The notes under the pieces are model-generated. The model saw nothing but the letters and a program-made list of their open reading frames with translations. It was not told the origin of the DNA and searched no databases. Below, one piece after another: positions 23,956 through 34,211 of a stretch of 37,150 nucleotides of DNA. Position 1 is the stretch's first letter. Each line of letters opens with the position of its first letter. A program made the position numbers and the translations under genes. This DNA is from an uncultured Gammaproteobacteria bacterium (GTDB lineage Bacteria > Patescibacteriota > Microgenomatia > Levybacterales > UBA12049), in contig CAZCYO010000005.1 of assembly GCA_964503265.1 (NCBI GenBank), forward strand, positions 1-37,150, read 5' to 3'.

Positions 23956-24915
23956 ATGGCACGCGAATTTGGTTCACAAATGCCTGAGAAGGGGTCTGAA
24001 GATTTTCGTGCTCAAAAGCCTCTTCCTCTTTCTGAACAACCCGTATCTCGTCGAACTGCATTTCGTGTTGGTGTCGGCGGATTACTGACTGCAATTGGAC
24101 TGGGCGCAATTATCAGATCTCAGGATCACACCACTCCACCTCCAGTCGAACCTTCCCATGAAAAATCATACGATGTTATTTCAGCGAACGCTGAAAGGTT
24201 AGGGATACACGAAAGTACCCTTGAAAAAAACCGTTGGAATACGATTCGCACTGCTTTTCCAGCGGTAAATCGTGAGAAAGGAAAATCTTATCAAAAAGAA
24301 GCACAACAGAGGCTTTCCCATCTTCAGCAAGCGATGCGCGAATCAGAAAATCCCGACATGAGACAAGCTGCATTATATCTAGATAGTTTAGGAGATTCCG
24401 TACGACTTGTTTCAGTTGCTACTCCCCTCCCGACAGTAAGTAATATTGGTTCACTTATGGACACTGCCATCATTGCAGATCCAGAACGAGAAGGAACCGT
24501 AGCGCGCATTCGTGTACAGGAAGAGTATTTATTCAGTGGCTTAGCTCCTGAATACCTTGCTACAGTGCTTGCCCATGAAGCTCGTCATACAAAAGAATTT
24601 ATGACTGAATTAGCAAAACTTCCTTCATCTCTTTCCCCAATTGAACGCCAGCGTGCAATTGAAGCATATTACACTATACATACAGATGACGTTGAAGCAC
24701 GAGGATATGCTACGCAGGTAAACGCATATATTGCGGCCGTCGGATTAACGAGATTTAATGCGTCAAACATAGATCAAAAACTGGGAGATTCAGCAGCCTA
24801 TTTTATTAAAAGCTGTGAGAGTAATGAAGCAAATCCTCTCTGGGTACAGTGGGTAAAAGATGTCTCACGAAAACGAACCGTCGGCGAGATTACGCCAGTC
24901 CCATTTTCTGCTTAA
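23956..24915 (+). CDS. Hypothetical exported protein with a twin-arginine-like motif and an HExxH motif
   Basis: SRRTAF followed by a hydrophobic stretch; VLAHEARH; downstream EARGY; TGGTATGAT 7 nt upstream of the MAREF start. Confidence 0.65.
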   Translation: MAREFGSQMPEKGSEDFRAQKPLPLSEQPVSRRTAFRVGVGGLLTAIGLGAIIRSQDHTTPPPVEPSHEKSYDVISANAERLGIHESTLEKNRWNTIRTAFPAVNREKGKSYQKEAQQRLSHLQQAMRESENPDMRQAALYLDSLGDSVRLVSVATPLPTVSNIGSLMDTAIIADPEREGTVARIRVQEEYLFSGLAPEYLATVLAHEARHTKEFMTELAKLPSSLSPIERQRAIEAYYTIHTDDVEARGYATQVNAYIAAVGLTRFNASNIDQKLGDSAAYFIKSCESNEANPLWVQWVKDVSRKRTVGEITPVPFSA

Positions 24916-25873
24916 CTTCAGTGAGAGTCTCCGAAGCTCGACTCAAACATTTTTCTCTACTTTCTTTAAGTACGCGATCGACATAGTCAGGATTTGCTTC
25001 AAGTTCACGTCTTTTTTCCTGAAGTGGCGCAAGTTCTGTATAAATTGCTTCAGCTAACTCCTGCTTCATATCCCCGTATCGAATTCGTTTCTCTTCATAA
25101 GCCTGAGTATACCTCTGATACATCTCCTCTGTTCCAAACAATTTTAGCATCGTAAATAGATTCGCAACTCCTCCGCGCTGTGGGATTTGCCCTCCCTCAA
25201 CACCACTATCTGTCGGTGCACTCGCGAGTCGCTTTTTAATCGTCTCTAAATCGTCCATGAGCGTAATATAGCTTCCTTCAACAGACTTACTCATCTTTCC
25301 CTCCCCTGACAGTGACGGAACATATTCCCCTGTGGTTGCAAAACGAGTTGGCTCTGGAAATGTCTCACCAAACATACTATTAAATTTCCGTGCTATTTCT
25401 CGTGTTACTTCTAAATGTGGTTCTTGGTCAATTCCGACCGGTACAAGTTCTGCTTTATACAGCATAATATCTGCTGCCATAAGCACTGGATAATAGAGCA
25501 GTCCCATGTTTACGTATTTGGGGTGCTGCGCTTTTTTATCTTTATATGTCGGCAGATCCTCAAGTCGAGATACTGGATAAATTGTACCCAAATAGTACGC
25601 AAGTTCCATATGCTGTGGCACATGCGACTGCACTTCAAGTAAACATTTTTCTGGATCAAGCCCTGCCGCTAAATAATCAATCACAATATTTCGAATATTT
25701 GCCTGGAGAGCACTTGGTTCATACGGCGTTGTAATCGCATGCAGATCCACGACAGAGAAAATACAATCATACTCATCCTGAACAGCCAGCATCCCCTTCA
25801 CCGCCCCAAGGTAATTTCCCAGATGCAACCGATTCGTTGCTCTAATACCAGAATAAACCTTCTTTTTTATCAT
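24890..25873 (-). CDS. trpS: Tryptophan--tRNA ligase
   Basis: HLGN (HIGH), YPVLMAADI, VPVGIDQEPH, KMSKS. Confidence 0.97.
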   Translation of the reverse strand: MIKKKVYSGIRATNRLHLGNYLGAVKGMLAVQDEYDCIFSVVDLHAITTPYEPSALQANIRNIVIDYLAAGLDPEKCLLEVQSHVPQHMELAYYLGTIYPVSRLEDLPTYKDKKAQHPKYVNMGLLYYPVLMAADIMLYKAELVPVGIDQEPHLEVTREIARKFNSMFGETFPEPTRFATTGEYVPSLSGEGKMSKSVEGSYITLMDDLETIKKRLASAPTDSGVEGGQIPQRGGVANLFTMLKLFGTEEMYQRYTQAYEEKRIRYGDMKQELAEAIYTELAPLQEKRRELEANPDYVDRVLKESREKCLSRASETLTEVKQKMGLA

Positions 25874-25944
25874 ACTTTTTCCTTTCTTTCCTGCTTGCCC
25901 TTCCGTAGCTTTATGCGAAGGAGGGAATATACTTTCTTTTTCAT
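25870..25944 (-). other. 24-aa ghost-start uORF MKKKVYSLLRIKLRKGKQERKEKV; its stop overlaps the trpS ATG (ATGA)
   Basis: KKKVYS matches the trpS N-terminus MIKKKVYSG; contains a palindromic element at about 25894-25925; TTGCGG-N17-TACAAT at 25982-25954 upstream. Confidence 0.7.
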
Positions 25945-25949
25945 ATCGC

Positions 25950-26651
25950 TCATATTGTAGTATTTTTATAATATCTCCGCAATAAAGACTGGGCCAATAT
26001 TTCAAGAGAATTGTATACAGGCACTTTATATTTAGTAGGAAAAATTAATGGAAGCTCAGTACAGCCAAGAATTATTCCCTGTGCACCTTTTTCAACAAGT
26101 ATATCTGCTAGTCTAACAAGTAACTTTTTTTGAGAAGGAGATGTTTTTCCAGCGATAACACTTCTTATCACTGATTCAATTGTTGAGAATTCTTCATCTC
26201 CTACTGAGATAACTTCAATACCTTTATTAATAAGCTCAGTGTGGTAAATCTTTGATCGAAGTGTAGATGGAGTTCCTAAAATTCCTACTTTTTTAATTGA
26301 GTCATTTGTAACTATTTTAACAACTTCGGTAATCATCGAGACAAAAGATACCACTGAGCATCTTTGTAATTCAGGTAATAGAATATGCGCAGTATTACAA
26401 GCAATTGATAAACAATCTAACTCAAGATGCTGTAACTGTTTAACTCGCGTAATGAGCATTGTTAGTGCTTTTTCTTTAGCATCTTCACTCGATATGAAAT
26501 CCGGCACCGGAATAGACTGAAGTATAATTTCAGGAAAGTCATCATTATGCTTTGCTCCAAAATCTCGAATTGCTAACTCAATAAGAAGTTTATATAAATA
26601 TCCTGATGCTTCAGGTCCCATTCCTCCTAGTATTCCAATTGCTTTTTTCAT
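25950..26651 (-). CDS. Aspartate/glutamate racemase family protein (PLP-independent)
   Basis: IGILGGMGP, IACNTAH and ILGCTELP catalytic cysteine motifs. Confidence 0.92.
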   Translation of the reverse strand: MKKAIGILGGMGPEASGYLYKLLIELAIRDFGAKHNDDFPEIILQSIPVPDFISSEDAKEKALTMLITRVKQLQHLELDCLSIACNTAHILLPELQRCSVVSFVSMITEVVKIVTNDSIKKVGILGTPSTLRSKIYHTELINKGIEVISVGDEEFSTIESVIRSVIAGKTSPSQKKLLVRLADILVEKGAQGIILGCTELPLIFPTKYKVPVYNSLEILAQSLLRRYYKNTTI

Positions 26652-26653
26652 AT

Positions 26654-27838
26654 TTATTTCTGTTGTATTCCTCGTATAAAACTGTCTGTATCTCCTCTTT
26701 TATCACTCACGGCGTAGAAATATGCAATATCTAACTGTGCATGCTTATCGATTGAAGCTACTCCACGTGGATTTATATGTCCAGAAACAACATCACGCAG
26801 AGAGATATCCCCTTCTCGTGCTGGATAATATGGTGCTGAACCATGCTTCGTTAAAAATTGTACAGTTGGTAGCTGGTAAGCGTCGCCTGCATATTGACGA
26901 AGATGAAATCGAGTTAAGTTAAAGTCCGCCTCTTGTCTCCCACCTGTACTAATAATTGCACGTGGAATATATGCATCAACTGGATTACCATTTATCGGAA
27001 CAAGTAAATCACTCATATTCGTATCGTGCATTAATAAATGTGCCGCAGCATATCGCATACTTGCCCCATCTCTTGTTCCTTTTGCTTTACTTGTAATTTT
27101 TTCTTTAAGAAGCTCGGGAAGATGTGTACCTGCAAGTGTCGCCAATCTATCCAGTTCAGTCGCAATTGGTGCGCCTGGCTTTACTGGTGCGTCTTCAAGA
27201 AAAACCACCCTATTCGCAATTTTTGGGAAGAATTCTTCAACATATGCTCTCGTAACATCAACAAATCCACGAGTTTCACGAGCTAATGCCTGGTAATCAG
27301 CATTATTTATATGCGCAGCTACATGATTTGCAAAGATTATTTGTAGTTGTGGAGAGGTTGGTGATTTGACAGTTGTATGCTTTTGTTCTGAAATATTCTC
27401 CATTTGTAGTAATGAAGGCAAAACCATGCTTACTCCTCGAAACTGCATCTCTGGAGTTCCGCCAAATACGACTCTCATGACAGCTCGTTCGGAAGACGTG
27501 TCCTGTCTTGCAATCATATCTGCTACAGGAGGGACATTATGATAATCAAATGCGCCAAGCCCATACAGATATTTACTCTCTTTATCCGTAGGACCAACAA
27601 GTAAGCCTTCCACAACCTGCGGAAAACGAATATGATATGCGGCACCTTCAGGAGTTGCAGGAGATTCAGTGTTGGGTTTTAGAAAATTCCCGAAATCAGT
27701 TTCACGTGGAACATAGCCATCATGTATACCCCCAACTAGTTGAAGTTGTGCCTTATTAAATGACTGCCGCAAACTACCCCGTGCAGCACGTGGATATGTT
27801 TCTAGCGGTGATACTGATAGTTGTTCTTCTTTATTCAT
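26654..27838 (-). CDS. Hypothetical protein, possibly a class Ic aaRS-like Rossmann fold
   Basis: 394-aa ORF starting right after the T-box terminator; 2 nt from the racemase start; fold guess from motif order only. Confidence 0.7.
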   Translation of the reverse strand: MNKEEQLSVSPLETYPRAARGSLRQSFNKAQLQLVGGIHDGYVPRETDFGNFLKPNTESPATPEGAAYHIRFPQVVEGLLVGPTDKESKYLYGLGAFDYHNVPPVADMIARQDTSSERAVMRVVFGGTPEMQFRGVSMVLPSLLQMENISEQKHTTVKSPTSPQLQIIFANHVAAHINNADYQALARETRGFVDVTRAYVEEFFPKIANRVVFLEDAPVKPGAPIATELDRLATLAGTHLPELLKEKITSKAKGTRDGASMRYAAAHLLMHDTNMSDLLVPINGNPVDAYIPRAIISTGGRQEADFNLTRFHLRQYAGDAYQLPTVQFLTKHGSAPYYPAREGDISLRDVVSGHINPRGVASIDKHAQLDIAYFYAVSDKRGDTDSFIRGIQQK

Positions 27839-28118
27839 AAAAAAAGCCCTTGCAAAACCACAAAGAAAATTGTGATCTTACAAGGGCTTATTACAAGCGG
27901 TGCCACCTTGCGAGTGTCTCTATAAAAAAATGCTCCCATTACGGAAGCAAAATCATGAAAGAAACCTTATTCATGACGTGCTTAATCTTCTTTGACTCAA
28001 CTTGTGCTGAGCTTGCCGAAGCAATTCACGTTACTGACTGTTACCCACGTTCGTCTGTGGCGCATTATGTATTTTGCGAAAGCTCCCTAGGGTCCAAAAT
28101 TCCCAGATCAACGCTTAT
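27839..28118 (-). ncRNA. T-box riboswitch leader, ultra-short Stem I, Trp specifier, transcription-termination type
   Basis: K-turn Stem I at 28114-28082 with UGG at 28096-28094; antiterminator CAAGG-UGGCACC-GCUU/AAGC-CCUUG at 27910-27881; competing terminator 27889-27844 followed by a U tract. Confidence 0.85.
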
Positions 28119-28124
28119 AGATGT

Positions 28125-28152
28125 ATTTTAGCGTAAAAATAGTTTTTGTCAA
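28125..28152 (-). promoter_or_regulatory. Sigma70 promoter for the T-box leader
   Basis: TTGACA(28152-28147)-N16-TAAAAT(28130-28125). Confidence 0.7.
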
Positions 28153-28157
28153 ATTGT

Positions 28158-28190
28158 GTGAAGAGGAGGATGCGTCGTCCTTCTCTTCAC
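28158..28190. terminator. Hairpin, probable terminator of the small-ORF cluster
   Basis: GTGAAGAGGAGGA...TCCTTCTCTTCAC, immediately after the 28198 stop. Confidence 0.6.
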
Positions 28191-28197
28191 AGTGGGT

Positions 28198-28431
28198 TTA
28201 CCACGTGATAGTGAAGTCCGGCGGACAGTTAGGAGCGCAAGGCGATGGTGGCAGTGTGAGAACAACCATCAGAATTCCGCACGCGATAAAGATCAAGGCG
28301 ACAAGTATAATGACTGCCTGCACGTTATCCTCATGTGTCATCTGTTCAGACGCATGGCTCGTGTTTCCCACCAGCCCAAAGAACAGACATACGATACCAA
28401 TCACCATGAACCCACACCCGATCCAGCTCAT
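28198..28431 (-). CDS. Small two-TM hypothetical protein
   Basis: GGAG SD; ATGA overlap with the upstream ORF stop. Confidence 0.6.
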   Translation of the reverse strand: MSWIGCGFMVIGIVCLFFGLVGNTSHASEQMTHEDNVQAVIILVALIFIACGILMVVLTLPPSPCAPNCPPDFTITW

Positions 28432-33902: not shown

Positions 33903-33960
33903 AGATTCATTGTCGCAAGTGAGGCAAGCAGAGTCAAGAAAGGTGAGATGATATGTTATG

Positions 33961-34034
33961 TAGCAGGAGTGGGGATCGAACCCACGACCTCAGCGTTATG
34001 AATGCTGTGCTCTAACCGACTGAGCTACCCTGCC
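33961..34034 (-). tRNA. tRNA-Met(CAU), probably elongator
   Basis: GGCAGGG...TAGCTCAGTCGGTTAGAGC...TTCATAA...GGTTCGATCC...TCCTGCT A; CCA not encoded; TTGTAT-N17-TAAAAT upstream. Confidence 0.92.
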
Positions 34035-34135: not shown

Positions 34136-34204
34136 CGCGGGTTAGTGTACAGTGCACGCGAGGCTCATAATCTTGCAGGCTAGGCGCAACTCCTAGACCC
34201 GCAA
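34136..34204 (+). tRNA. Non-canonical initiator-like tRNA-Met(CAU)
   Basis: Cloverleaf with C1xA72 mismatch, CTCATAA anticodon loop, 5-nt D loop, T loop CGCAACT; own promoter and terminator. Confidence 0.75.
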
Positions 34205-34211
34205 CACTACG

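What the first reader, a model, noticed from the sequence alone, without database searches (positions are those of the whole stretch)
27839..28152. Trp-specific T-box riboswitch with an ultra-short Stem I acting by termination, in a probable CPR genome
Seen in sequence (minus strand): promoter TTGACA-N16-TAAAAT; 5'-GC GUU GA UCUGGG [AAUUUUGGAC] CCUAGG GA GC-3', which forms a kink-turn and a 6-bp stem with a terminal loop holding UGG-A; the antiterminator CAAGG-UGGCACC-GCUU-GUAAU-AAGC-CCUUG; and a mutually exclusive terminator (AAGCCCUUG...CAAGGGCUU plus U tract) ending directly at the AUG of the 394-aa ORF. Established knowledge: the UGGN bulge pairs the tRNA NCCA end, so C implies G73, the bacterial tRNA-Trp discriminator, and UGG is the Trp codon. 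Ultra-short Stem I T-boxes are known from actinobacterial ileS leaders, which act on translation. trpS is the third gene downstream, so three independent features point to Trp. Inference: a hybrid T-box type (ultra-short Stem I, transcriptional, Trp) in a lineage where I do not recall T-boxes being described.
Basis: partly seen in the sequence, partly recalled or inferred. Interest (0 to 1): 0.9.

Follow-up and report, generated by a model that had tools for sequence, protein, structure and literature searches.

The report
Minimal tryptophan T-box riboswitch, Levybacteria
The leader before this operon is most likely a real tRNA-sensing RNA switch (T-box) for tryptophan in an uncultured ultra-small (CPR) bacterium; it ends in a transcription terminator yet lacks the long tRNA-elbow-binding arm that such terminator-type switches are thought to need, and standard annotation misses it.

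Summary

Rfam's T-box model does not detect it, even at E<=10. Comparative evidence nevertheless supports a T-box:
- Homologous leaders sit at the syntenic site (TGT ... trpS, HhH-GPD) in at least 10 related CPR contigs.
- UGG plus a purine is invariant, while the stems change in a compensatory way.
- In relatives the UGGN base covaries with the discriminator of an adjacent tRNA-Trp gene (G73 with C, A73 with U).
- Sister leaders of the same build carry UAC, CCU/CCG or CGC before Tyr, Pro or Arg genes.
- One Trp leader heads trpB-trpA-trpS.

The 170 nt between Stem I and the antiterminator hold Stem II, Stem IIA with an F-box-like CGUCA, and a long Stem III. The "second terminator" hairpin with its U-run is the tip of that Stem III.

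Termination is inferred from sequence and from relatives that precede tRNA genes; no experiment exists. I found no published description. Earlier reports of this scan describe the same CPR class for other amino acids. Verdict: a new variant of a known kind.

The parts
28125..28152 (-). Sigma-70-type promoter: TTGACA (28152-28147), 16-nt spacer, TAAAAT (28130-28125). The predicted start is near 28118.
   Evidence: 11 of 12 consensus matches, the only such site in 27700-28300. TTGACA/TATAAT-like hexamers sit at the equivalent place in L010, L012, L020, L024 and L029. The start site itself is inferred.
28080..28116 (-). Ultrashort Stem I: C-stem AAGC/GCUU, 3-nt bulge GUU, tandem G-A/A-G (K-turn consensus), 6-bp stem UCUGGG/CCUAGG, and a terminal 10-nt specifier loop AAUUUUGGAC.
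   Evidence: the MFE fold gives exactly this structure. Covariation: C-stem AAGC/GCUU versus UAGC/GCUA; stem CG to UA or GC (helices 1-2, 79). There is no distal AG bulge or distal loop platform.
28094..28096 (-). Specifier UGG (Trp codon), followed by the purine A at 28093.
   Evidence: UUGG plus a purine is invariant in 12 Trp-type leaders. Sister leaders carry UAC, CCU/CCG or CGC at the same loop end, in front of Tyr, Pro or Arg genes.
28032..28064 (-). Stem II candidate: outer pairs UGC 28064-28062 with GUA 28034-28032; inner helix CCAC 28060-28057 with GUGG 28048-28045; loop AGACGAAC; a purine-rich 3' strand.
   Evidence: The inner helix covaries: CGG/CCG, CUG/CAG, CCAC/GUGG (helix 4, 97% paired). 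An S-turn or 5-purine string was not tested.
27974..28031 (-). Stem IIA candidate: ACGUG 28031-28027 with CACGU 27980-27976, enclosing a variable insert. It ends in the F-box-like CGUCA at 27978-27974.
   Evidence: Covaries as ACAUG/CAUGU in L029 and ACGUG/CGCGU in L018 (helix 5, 95.7% paired). The F-box of the M. tuberculosis ileS T-box is CGUCA (PMC11297988) and that of N. farcinica is CCGUCA (PMC7583486). The IIB pseudoknot was not identified.
27916..27971 (-). Discriminator part 1. Purine string AAUAAG 27971-27966, then a long Stem III: base helix GUUUCU 27965-27960 with AGAGAC 27921-27916, an internal loop, and the tip hairpin UGCUUCC-GUAAU-GGGAGCA 27949-27931. The U7 run at 27930-27924 lies on the 3' strand.
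   Evidence: The base helix covaries strongly: UUUUCUUAU/AUAGGAAAA, GUUAACUUA/UAAGUUAAC, AAUUAUCUCA/UGAGAUAAUU, AUUUUCUACA/UGUAGGGGAU (helices 6-8, 91-97% paired). The flanks AAURAG ... [quoted passage not shown] The scan also flags the tip plus U7 as terminator-like.
27881..27910 (-). Antiterminator: A1 CAAGG/CCUUG, 7-nt T-box bulge UGGCACC (27905-27899), A2 GCUU/AAGC, loop GUAAU.
   Evidence: A1 is 97.8% and A2 94.1% paired across the family, and the A2 sequence varies freely (helices 9-10). In relatives, N covaries with the tRNA-Trp discriminator.
27839..27889 (-). Intrinsic terminator: 20-bp hairpin at 27889-27844. Seven consecutive U (27845-27839) follow C27846; two close the stem and five are unpaired. 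The 5' arm reuses the 3' halves of A2 and A1. The 3' arm contains AAGGG (27851-27847), 8 nt before the ATG.
   Evidence: -30.4 kcal/mol, z = -9.75. The distal terminator stems differ in sequence but stay complementary in every relative.
24890..27838 (-). Controlled genes: a 394-aa protein with a TrpRS/TyrRS-like fold and no family assignment (26654-27838), an Asp/Glu-type racemase (25950-26651), and trpS (within 24890-26005).
   Evidence: Relatives have racemase plus trpS, tRNA-Trp plus racemase plus trpS, or trpB-trpA-trpS behind the same type of leader.

Best explanation
This is a tryptophan-specific T-box riboswitch of a stripped-down build that most likely acts by transcription attenuation.

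Proposed sequence of events:
1. Transcription starts at the promoter at 28152-28125.
2. The nascent leader folds a K-turn and a 6-bp hairpin. The terminal loop of that hairpin displays UGG-A (28096-28093) to the CCA anticodon of tRNA-Trp.
3. There is no distal Stem I platform for the tRNA elbow. As in actinobacterial ileS T-boxes, a Stem II/Stem IIA module with an F-box-like CGUCA follows and probably clamps the codon-anticodon helix.
4. A long Stem III, flanked by purines, and the antiterminator (bulge UGGCACC) then form the aminoacylation sensor.
5. If the bound tRNA-Trp is uncharged, its 3'-GCCA pairs with UGGC (27905-27902). This stabilises the weak antiterminator (-5.5 kcal/mol), and RNA polymerase reads into the aaRS-like gene, the racemase and trpS.
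6. If the tRNA is charged or absent, the 20-bp terminator (-30.4 kcal/mol) with its U-tract forms and transcription stops just before the ATG.

Shown here, in silico: the motifs; their conservation and covariation; codon/gene and N/discriminator correspondence in relatives; mutual exclusivity of the two folds.

Inferred: tRNA binding, sensing of charging, actual termination, the role of Stem II, and G73 in this genome's tRNA-Trp.
For: - Motifs and geometry are as described.
- Homologous leaders occupy the syntenic TGT ... trpS-HhH-GPD locus of Levybacteria-like contigs L010, L012, L018, L020, L024 and L029. Further Trp leaders are L034, L035, L037, L106, L108 and L126.
- UGG plus a purine is invariant over changing stems. 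An unbiased MAFFT/RNAalifold run recovers the stem, with 3 of 4 pairs compensated.
- Whole-structure covariation: 92.2% of cells paired versus 66.5% shuffled and 45-48% slid; 244 cells with double changes.
- UGGC occurs with tRNA-Trp G73 (L126, L034), and UGGU with tRNA-Trp A73 (L108).
- The codon switches with the regulated gene: UAC with TyrRS or tRNA-Tyr; CCU/CCG with ProRS, OCD and an amino-acid kinase-family gene (probably proB); CGC with OTCase.
- The Trp leader of L029 heads an operon containing Trp_syntA and a TrpB-like PALP enzyme before trpS.
- Leaders of this build directly precede tRNA genes (L108, L126, L037, L120, L175). This only makes sense for control of transcription.
- F-box-like CGUCA and purine flanks of Stem III match published T-box features.
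- The leader of a near-identical relative is present in four wastewater metatranscriptome assemblies.
Against: - Rfam RF00230 gives no hit at E<=10 for the window. It gives none at gathering threshold for 18 related leaders, although it finds the Planococcus control at 128 bits.
- The elbow-binding platform, said to be generally required by transcriptional T-boxes, is absent (PMC7583486).
- The A2 pair next to the bulge is G-C (23 of 25) rather than the G-U wobble described as the steric sensor.
- GGA (Gly) is as conserved as UGG in most loops and is excluded only by context.
- Many Levybacteria-like trpS loci with 6 kb of upstream sequence have no such leader, so the element is patchy.
- The covariation alignment was fitted to my own structure.
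- There is no experimental evidence. The RNA contigs cannot show termination.
Confidence: 0.85

Rival explanations
1. It is a T-box that acts mainly on translation, as the actinobacterial ultrashort ileS T-boxes do. In this reading the 'terminator' is a sequestrator that hides the ribosome-binding site AAGGG (27851-27847), 8 nt before the ATG.
For: No separate Shine-Dalgarno sequence lies between the hairpin and the ATG. AAGGG sits in the 3' arm at a workable distance. L018 has the same arrangement. All ultrashort Stem I T-boxes characterised so far are translational.
Against: The hairpin is followed by seven consecutive U and scores as a canonical intrinsic terminator. Relatives of the same build have a separate SD downstream (L119, L153) or precede tRNA genes, which are not translated. 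Sequestration could still operate in addition to termination; I give that about 0.3.
Confidence: 0.08
2. It is a two-stage attenuator. The hairpin at 27949-27931 plus U7 (27930-27924) would be a first, separately controlled terminator or a programmed pause site ahead of the T-box decision.
For: The scan calls it terminator-like: 8 bp, 4 G-C pairs, U7 (-9.8 kcal/mol, z = -3.9). The U-run is conserved in nearly all long-type leaders. In some relatives overlapping alternative pairings exist: GCACGUC pairs either upstream or with GACGUGC. A pause would give time for tRNA capture without the elbow platform; this last point is inference.
Against: The hairpin is the tip of a long, strongly covarying helix whose 3' strand follows the U-run. 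The purine flanks match those of Stem III in known discriminators. The alternative pairings are not conserved; they are absent in the window and in L018. Mini leaders (L034, L106) have a plain Stem III with no U-run.
Confidence: 0.15
3. The specifier is GGA (Gly), read one base further 3'. In sister leaders the codon lies directly before a single purine and then the stem.
For: In Tyr, Pro and Arg leaders the codon is followed by one purine and then the stem. Applying that register to AAUUUUGGAA-CCGG gives GGA-A.
Against: Every downstream context is tryptophan: trpS, trpBA, tRNA-Trp(CCA). N matches the discriminator of the adjacent tRNA-Trp in three loci. From my own knowledge, bacterial tRNA-Gly has U73, which would call for UGGA. 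In the window, if G28102 pairs with C28092, and in L108, the register codon-purine-stem gives UGG. The U before GG is invariant.
Confidence: 0.02
4. It is a relic or a protein-dependent attenuator that merely keeps T-box-like sequence, with regulation by a TrpR-family or other protein.
For: A Trp_repressor-family gene lies directly upstream of the leader in L018, and upstream of the 394-aa gene's homologue in L001, which has no leader. L037 keeps the 5' module but has no UGGN-ACC bulge.
Against: Purifying selection with compensatory changes acts on every helix. N covaries with the discriminator and the codon covaries with the gene; neither is expected without tRNA pairing.
Confidence: 0.03

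Closest known systems
Class I (transcriptional) T-box leaders, Rfam RF00230, for example Bacillus subtilis tyrS or the Planococcus trpS leader found here as a control (L064)
   Same: K-turn at the base of Stem I. Codon plus purine as specifier. Stem II, Stem IIA and an F-box. Stem III with purine flanks. Antiterminator A1, UGGNACC bulge and A2. A competing intrinsic terminator. Amino-acid-related genes downstream.
   Different: Stem I stops at the specifier, which lies in the terminal loop rather than an internal one. There is no S-turn side of a specifier loop, no AG bulge and no distal-loop (IDTM) elbow platform. The A2 closing pair is G-C, not G-U. Stem III is a long interrupted helix with a U-run. 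RF00230 does not score it. The lineage is CPR.
Ultrashort Stem I ileS T-boxes of Actinobacteria (Mycobacterium tuberculosis, M. smegmatis, Nocardia farcinica; Sherwood, Grundy and Henkin 2015, as summarised in PMC7583486 and PMC11297988)
   Same: Stem I is reduced to a K-turn plus a short helix with the codon in the terminal loop. It is followed by a Stem II/IIA module with a CGUCA-type F-box. No elbow contact is possible.
   Different: Those leaders sequester a Shine-Dalgarno sequence and control translation, are specific for Ile and occur in Actinobacteria. This one ends in a canonical terminator with a U-tract, is specific for Trp, and belongs to a multi-specificity family in CPR. Homology of its Stem II to theirs (S-turn, pseudoknot) is not shown.
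glyQS-type T-boxes (no Stem II or IIA/B)
   Same: The mini relatives L034, L035 and L106 go from Stem I through a short linker (with Stem III in L034 and L106) straight to the antiterminator, as glyQS leaders do.
   Different: glyQS leaders compensate with a full-length Stem I and elbow platform. The mini CPR leaders have neither. The window's leader does have the Stem II region.

Membership tests
T-box riboswitch (in general) | T-box sequence: a 7-nt bulge UGGNACC between helices A1 and A2 | tested here: met
   CAAGG-UGGCACC-GCUU..AAGC-CCUUG at 27910-27881. It is conserved in 26 of 27 family members.
T-box riboswitch (in general) | A specifier codon in Stem I, followed by a purine, that matches the amino acid of the regulated genes | tested here: met
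   UGG-A sits before an operon ending in trpS. UGG is invariant in 12 Trp leaders. UAC, CCU/CCG and CGC occur in sister leaders before Tyr, Pro and Arg genes.
T-box riboswitch (in general) | N of UGGN is complementary to the discriminator base (73) of the cognate tRNA | tested here: inconclusive
   Met in relatives: L126 and L034 have G73 with C, L108 has A73 with U, and the L120 Tyr leader has A73 with U.
T-box riboswitch (in general) | K-turn (GA motif) at the base of Stem I | tested here: met
   C-stem, 3-nt bulge, G-A/A-G, then U-G and the stem. The sequence fits the K-turn consensus, and UGA...GAG is conserved. The kinked fold itself is not testable here.
T-box riboswitch (in general) | Stem III with flanking purines (5'-RRRxG-Stem III-AA-3') forming the discriminator together with the antiterminator | tested here: inconclusive
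   AAUAAG - long Stem III - (A)CUCG in the window; AAURAG ... UAAAG in relatives. This is similar to the published motif but not identical.
T-box riboswitch (in general) | G-U wobble closing helix A2 next to the bulge (the steric sensor of the aminoacyl group) | tested here: not met
   G27898-C27886 in the window. Across the family the pair is G-C in 23 members and A-U in 2 (pair 448-497). The Planococcus control has G-U.
T-box riboswitch (in general) | Binding of uncharged cognate tRNA switches the fold | not testable with these tools
   This needs biochemistry.
Class I transcriptional T-box (Rfam RF00230) | Long Stem I with an internal specifier loop and S-turn, an AG bulge and a distal loop (tRNA-elbow platform) | tested here: not met
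   Stem I ends at a 10-nt terminal loop, and no distal elements exist.
Class I transcriptional T-box (Rfam RF00230) | Scores at or above the family's gathering threshold (93 bits) | tested here: not met
   No hit even at E<=10. 0 of 18 relatives score, while the control L064 reaches 128.1 bits.
Class I transcriptional T-box (Rfam RF00230) | An intrinsic terminator that excludes the antiterminator | tested here: met
   20-bp hairpin followed by a run of seven U. It shares 27889-27881 with A2 and A1. Termination itself is not shown.
Actinobacterial ultrashort Stem I (translational) T-box | Stem I reduced to a K-turn plus a short helix with the specifier in the terminal loop | tested here: met
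Actinobacterial ultrashort Stem I (translational) T-box | Stem II with an S-turn, plus a Stem IIA/B pseudoknot carrying the F-box | tested here: inconclusive
   Two covarying helices and CGUCA are present at the expected place. The S-turn and the pseudoknot pairing were not identified.
Actinobacterial ultrashort Stem I (translational) T-box | The expression platform is an SD sequestrator or anti-sequestrator with no terminator | tested here: not met
   A canonical terminator with a U-tract is present. Relatives precede tRNA genes. AAGGG in the 3' arm leaves room for an additional effect on translation.

The most novel reading that the evidence does not exclude
The window's leader may belong to a distinct, CPR-wide structural class of T-box.
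- The class would make a co-transcriptional, terminator-based decision with only a hairpin-loop codon and no tRNA-elbow platform. The mini members also lack Stem II.
- It uses a Watson-Crick pair instead of the G-U wobble at the sensing position.
- It has a long Stem III whose conserved hairpin plus U-run could act as a built-in pause that buys time for tRNA capture.
- In several members it drives the cognate tRNA gene itself, so that uncharged tRNA would induce its own synthesis together with its synthetase.
- Here it also places an uncharacterised protein with a TrpRS/TyrRS-like fold and a racemase in the tryptophan regulon.
Probability: 0.55. Interest if true: 0.85.

Novelty: new variant of a known kind. 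Interest (0 to 1): 0.7.

Why it matters
Current structural and kinetic models hold that T-boxes controlling a terminator must catch their tRNA quickly through the Stem I elbow platform. They hold that the ultrashort Stem I is tolerated only where slow, reversible control of translation applies (PMC7583486). A conserved family with several specificities that combines the ultrashort Stem I with a terminator would put that rule to a direct test. It would also define a smaller natural tRNA-decoding module.

T-boxes would extend to the Candidate Phyla Radiation, where regulatory RNAs are almost unexplored and where RF00230-based annotation misses these leaders (0 of 18 tested here).

The specifier also works as an annotation tool. 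Here it ties three things to tryptophan: a protein family with no Pfam, NCBIfam or PDB sequence match and an aaRS-like fold, an Asp/Glu-type racemase, and in relatives a TrpRS fused to an editing domain.

Tried and rejected
- Rfam at gathering threshold and at E<=10 gave no T-box hit. The weak matches (PyrR, bglG, miRNAs) only reflect the terminator hairpin.
I therefore could not read this genome's tRNA-Trp or list its other T-boxes.
- ARAGORN on 44 further relatives' loci found no tRNA-Trp.
- I first read the AAUAAG/CUUAU local hairpin and the chain of overlapping pairings (GCACGUC with ACGUG or with GACGUGC) as a leader-style attenuator. I rejected this as the main fold, for three reasons: the pairings are absent in the window and in L018; CUUAU instead belongs to a long-range helix that covaries far better; and AAUAAG matches the purine string 5' of Stem III.
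- A pseudoknot between GAAACC (Stem II) and GGUUUC was rejected, because L024 and L029 change one side without compensation.
- The RNAalifold pairing GCGUU/AAUGC was rejected because the middle position varies without compensation.
- No leader peptide with Trp codons is present.
- The first structure prediction of the 394-aa protein, from 2 sequences, was unusable at pLDDT 40. BLASTP against TrpRS was not significant.
- hhalign of the L018 353-aa ORF against the 394-aa family was negative.
- Three papers I wanted (PMC4313828, PMC6953718) were not held.
- The metatranscriptome data are contigs only, so no 3'-end profile could be obtained.
Full report
**Observation.**
- A TTGACA-N16-TAAAAT promoter lies at 28152-28125. 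It matches 11 of 12 consensus positions and is the only promoter-like site in 27700-28300.
- Next comes AAGC-GUU-GA-UCUGGG-[AAUUUUGGAC]-CCUAGG-GA-GCUU at 28116-28080. On its own this folds into the proposed C-stem, internal loop and 6-bp hairpin.
- About 170 nt further lies CAAGG-UGGCACC-GCUU-GUAAU-AAGC-CCUUG at 27910-27881.
- A 20-bp hairpin at 27889-27844 reuses AAGCCCUUG. A run of seven U (27845-27839) follows C27846, and then the ATG at 27838.
- The terminator folds at -30.4 kcal/mol (z = -9.75). The antiterminator alone folds at -5.5 kcal/mol.
- GGTGGNACCGC occurs once in 37 kb, against 0.01 expected by chance.
- The genes behind it are a 394-aa ORF with no Pfam, NCBIfam or PDB sequence match, an Asp/Glu-type racemase, and trpS.

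**Standard annotation misses it.**
Rfam 15 gives no T-box hit for the window at gathering threshold. It gives none at E<=10 when only 501 nt are searched. In a control run, RF00230 found the canonical trpS leader of Planococcus (L064, 128 bits) but none of 18 leaders related to the window's.

**Relatives.**
- A scan with TrpRS in one-genome-per-species contigs returned Candidatus Levybacteria and other Patescibacteria MAGs as closest relatives, at 62-88% identity. Several TPA records are labelled 'Gammaproteobacteria', but their TrpRS identity (61-88%) and, in the loci whose gene order I read, their synteny place them with these MAGs.
- A loose regular expression for the T-box core, and then a covariance model, found homologous leaders in L010, L012, L018, L020, L024, L029, L034, L035 and L037.
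- The Levybacteria-like loci whose gene order I read (L010, L012, L018, L020) share the window's synteny: tRNA-guanine transglycosylase, leader, variable genes, trpS, HhH-GPD glycosylase.
- A metagenome pattern scan (CAAGGTGGNACC...CCCTTG) added L106, L108 and L126 (Trp) and about a dozen leaders of the same build with other codons.

**Stem I and the specifier.**
- In all 12 Trp-type leaders the loop ends in UUGG plus a purine.
- The helix below it varies in a compensatory way: UCCGG/CCGGG in most, UCUGGG/CCUAGG in the window, UGGGA/UCCCG in L034, GGGAAU/AUUCCC in L108.
- A plain MAFFT/RNAalifold run, not fitted to any structure, recovers the stem with 3 of 4 pairs compensated.
- The base has the K-turn consensus: a Watson-Crick C-stem (AAGC/GCUU, covarying to UAGC/GCUA), a 3-nt bulge, tandem G-A/A-G, and then U-G or U-U.
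- Nothing lies beyond the loop. The AG bulge and distal loop that form the tRNA-elbow platform of ordinary T-boxes are absent.

**Specificity.**
Three independent lines point to tryptophan.
1. Context. The leaders precede trpS directly (L010, L012, L020, L035, L106), racemase plus trpS (L034), tRNA-Trp plus racemase plus trpS (L126), tRNA-Trp plus trpS (L037), or an operon with a TrpB-like PALP enzyme, Trp_syntA and trpS (L029).
2. Discriminator. Where a tRNA-Trp gene lies next to the leader, the N of UGGN is complementary to its base 73: G73 with UGGC in L126 and L034, A73 with UGGU in L108.
3. Sister leaders. Leaders with the same architecture show other codons at the same loop end, followed by a purine:
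   - UAC before TyrRS and tRNA-Tyr(GUA) genes (L089, L120, L156, L172, L175);
   - CCU or CCG before ProRS, ornithine cyclodeaminase and an amino-acid kinase-family gene, probably proB (L113, L141, L161);
   - CGC before ornithine carbamoyltransferase (L119, L140).

GGA, read one base further 3', is as conserved as UGG in most loops. It is excluded only by this context. It is also excluded by the register in the window (if G28102 pairs with C28092) and in L108, where codon-purine-stem reads UGG.

**The middle of the leader.**
Alignment shows the following.
- A Stem II candidate. Its inner helix covaries: CGG/CCG, CUG/CAG, and CCAC/GUGG in the window.
- A Stem IIA candidate, ACGUG/CACGU (ACAUG/CAUGU in L029), with a variable insert. 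It ends in CGUCA. The F-box of the M. tuberculosis ileS T-box is CGUCA and that of N. farcinica is CCGUCA (PMC11297988; PMC7583486).
- A conserved purine string, AAUAAG or AAUGAG.
- A long helix whose 5' strand (GUUUCU in the window, UUUUCUUAU in most) pairs with the segment just before the antiterminator (AGAGAC; AUAGGAAAA). It covaries strongly: GUUAACUUA/UAAGUUAAC in L029, AAUUAUCUCA/UGAGAUAAUU in L153, AUUUUCUACA/UGUAGGGGAU in L119.
- The G+C-rich hairpin at 27949-27931 with its U7 run, which looks like a second terminator, is the tip of this helix.

Taken together, purine string, long Stem III and A-rich linker resemble the published 5'-RRRxG-Stem III-AA-3' discriminator motif.

**Covariation count.**
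I built a covariance model from three relatives with this structure (R1).
- It scores the window at 117.6 bits.
- On the 27-member alignment it produced, 92.2% of cells pair. This compares with 66.5% after shuffling (0 of 500 shuffles reach the observed value) and 45-48% when partners are slid by one column.
- 43 of 45 pairs show changes on both sides.
- The alignment is fitted to the model, so these numbers lean towards the structure. The slid control and the unfitted checks argue that the signal is real.

**Mechanism.**
The most likely mechanism is the classical T-box one.
- The anticodon of tRNA-Trp pairs with UGG.
- The free 3'-GCCA pairs with UGGC and stabilises a weak antiterminator against a much stronger terminator.
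- Readthrough then expresses the operon.

Control at the level of transcription is supported by the canonical hairpin plus U-tract. It is also supported by relatives in which the leader directly precedes a tRNA gene (L108, L126, L037, L120, L175), where control of translation is impossible.

In the window and in L018 there is no separate Shine-Dalgarno sequence. AAGGG in the 3' arm of the terminator lies 8 nt before the ATG, so an added effect on translation is possible but unproven. Whether the Stem III tip plus U-run pauses or partly terminates the polymerase is open. A pause would be a plausible way to gain time for tRNA capture without the elbow contact, but that is inference.

**Departures from known T-boxes.**
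1. There is no elbow platform, although the expression platform is a terminator. A 2020 review states that transcriptional T-boxes generally require the long Stem I. It also states that ultrashort forms occur in translational, mostly actinobacterial leaders (PMC7583486).
2. The A2 pair next to the bulge is G-C (23 of 25) or A-U, not the G-U wobble described as the primary steric sensor.
3. Stem III is a long interrupted helix.
4. Mini relatives (L034, L035, L106) lack the Stem II region altogether.
5. The distribution is patchy. Many Levybacteria-like trpS loci with 6 kb of upstream sequence have no leader.

**Expression.**
Four wastewater metatranscriptome runs of one study hold contigs that are 98-100% identical to the leader. 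They come from a close relative.
- Two contigs continue past the ATG into a different ORF.
- One carries a 29-nt hairpin inserted between 28086 and 28087.
- That same contig ends in an Illumina adapter 11 nt beyond 28121, just 5' of the predicted -10 hexamer. I cannot explain this. It could be upstream readthrough, DNA carry-over or a different start site.
- Contigs cannot show termination.

**Novelty.**
- Full-text searches for T-box together with Patescibacteria, candidate phyla radiation, Microgenomates, Parcubacteria or Saccharibacteria found nothing.
- TBDB applied its short-Stem-I model only to Actinobacteria and to sequences already found by RF00230 (PMC7778990).
- Earlier agents of this scan reported the same stripped-down class in other CPR genomes for Pro, Thr, Asp, Tyr, Cys and Trp, and a His leader in this very genome. 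Those are unchecked AI notes, not independent evidence. My own Tyr, Pro and Arg leaders agree with them.
- I therefore rate this as a new variant of a known kind. It is well supported in silico and of real interest to T-box specialists, but it is no longer a first sighting within this scan.

**The regulated genes.**
- Exhaustive HMMER found 218 relatives of the 394-aa protein. None of 60 has a Pfam match.
- With that alignment AlphaFold gives pLDDT 94.7.
- All of the 50 best PDB matches listed are tryptophanyl- or tyrosyl-tRNA synthetases (E from 1.5e-4, TM 0.33-0.43 on the query). It is thus a very divergent protein with a class Ic synthetase-like fold.
- Where a HIGH motif would be expected by eye, the sequence reads FGGTPEMQFRG.
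- Its one homologue found by the word-indexed search (34% identity; P0002 on contig L001) sits behind a Trp_repressor-family gene and before a racemase.

Noticed in passing
window 26654-27838 (-): The first gene of the operon (394 aa) has no Pfam, NCBIfam or PDB sequence match. It folds with high confidence (pLDDT 94.7) into a structure whose 50 best listed PDB matches are all TrpRS or TyrRS (E from 1.5e-4, TM about 0.4). It has 218 relatives in the 50%-identity library. No HIGH motif is visible (FGGTPEMQFRG) and AAAHLLMHD is conserved. It may be an aaRS-like enzyme acting on Trp or on Trp-tRNA.
   Followed up: partly
window 25950-26651 (-); L034 297-1016; L126 2459-3169; L001 1693-2424: An Asp/Glu-type racemase travels with Trp-specific leaders in three lineages, and with a Trp_repressor-family gene in L001. 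This suggests a racemase linked to tryptophan.
   Followed up: partly
L108 6312-6385; L126 2380-2452; L037 400-471; L120 2477-2565; L130 2889-2972; L175 4476-4548: T-box leaders are followed directly by the gene for the cognate tRNA (Trp or Tyr), usually with the synthetase after it. Uncharged tRNA would then induce its own gene. My one full-text search for T-box riboswitches upstream of tRNA genes did not turn up this arrangement.
   Followed up: partly
L126 3163-4571: The TrpRS behind a Trp leader is fused to an N-terminal aminoacyl-tRNA editing (YbaK-like, PF04073) domain and sits next to the racemase.
   Followed up: no
L037 207-399: This leader has a complete Trp decoding half (Stem I with UGG, Stem II, Stem IIA, Stem III plus U-run) but no UGGN-ACC bulge. 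It ends in the hairpin UCCCGCC-ACG-GCGGGA plus U6, just before tRNA-Trp. The leader segment UGUCCC repeats the 3' acceptor strand of that tRNA.
   Followed up: no
window, between 28086 and 28087 (RNA contig of run X8); L029 about 497-520; L119 about 1150-1180: An optional hairpin with similar sequence (CCUCCUUCACURAAGUU.CGG...GG) is inserted in the non-bulged strand of the Stem I K-turn in a near-identical relative and in an Arg leader; L029 carries a hairpin of different sequence at the same place. This turns the K-turn into a three-way junction.
   Followed up: no
L034 182-300; L035 5551-5700; L106 5869-5970 (-): Mini Trp leaders consist of an ultrashort Stem I, a linker of about 15-25 nt (with a plain Stem III in L034 and L106), the antiterminator and the terminator. 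They have no Stem II region at all.
   Followed up: partly
L018 3748-4041; L001 127-378: A Trp_repressor-family (PF01371) gene lies immediately upstream of the T-box promoter in L018. Another lies upstream of the 394-aa protein's homologue in L001, which has no leader. Protein and RNA regulators seem to be alternatives or partners at this locus.
   Followed up: no
window about 28121-28132 (RNA contig of run X8): One metatranscriptome contig ends in an Illumina adapter 11 nt beyond 28121, just 5' of the predicted -10 hexamer. This does not fit a start about 7 nt downstream of the -10. It is unexplained and may reflect readthrough, DNA carry-over or another start site.
   Followed up: no
window 33960-34034 (-) and 34136-34205 (+): There is a divergent pair of tRNA(CAU) genes, one of them only 70 nt long. 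The same pair recurs near the TGT-trpS region in L015, L018, L023, L042 and L108.
   Followed up: no
L024 2268-3368: A DAO-family FAD oxidoreductase (the family that includes D-amino-acid oxidases) lies in the operon behind the Trp leader of L024. Like the racemase, this hints at D-amino-acid chemistry.
   Followed up: no
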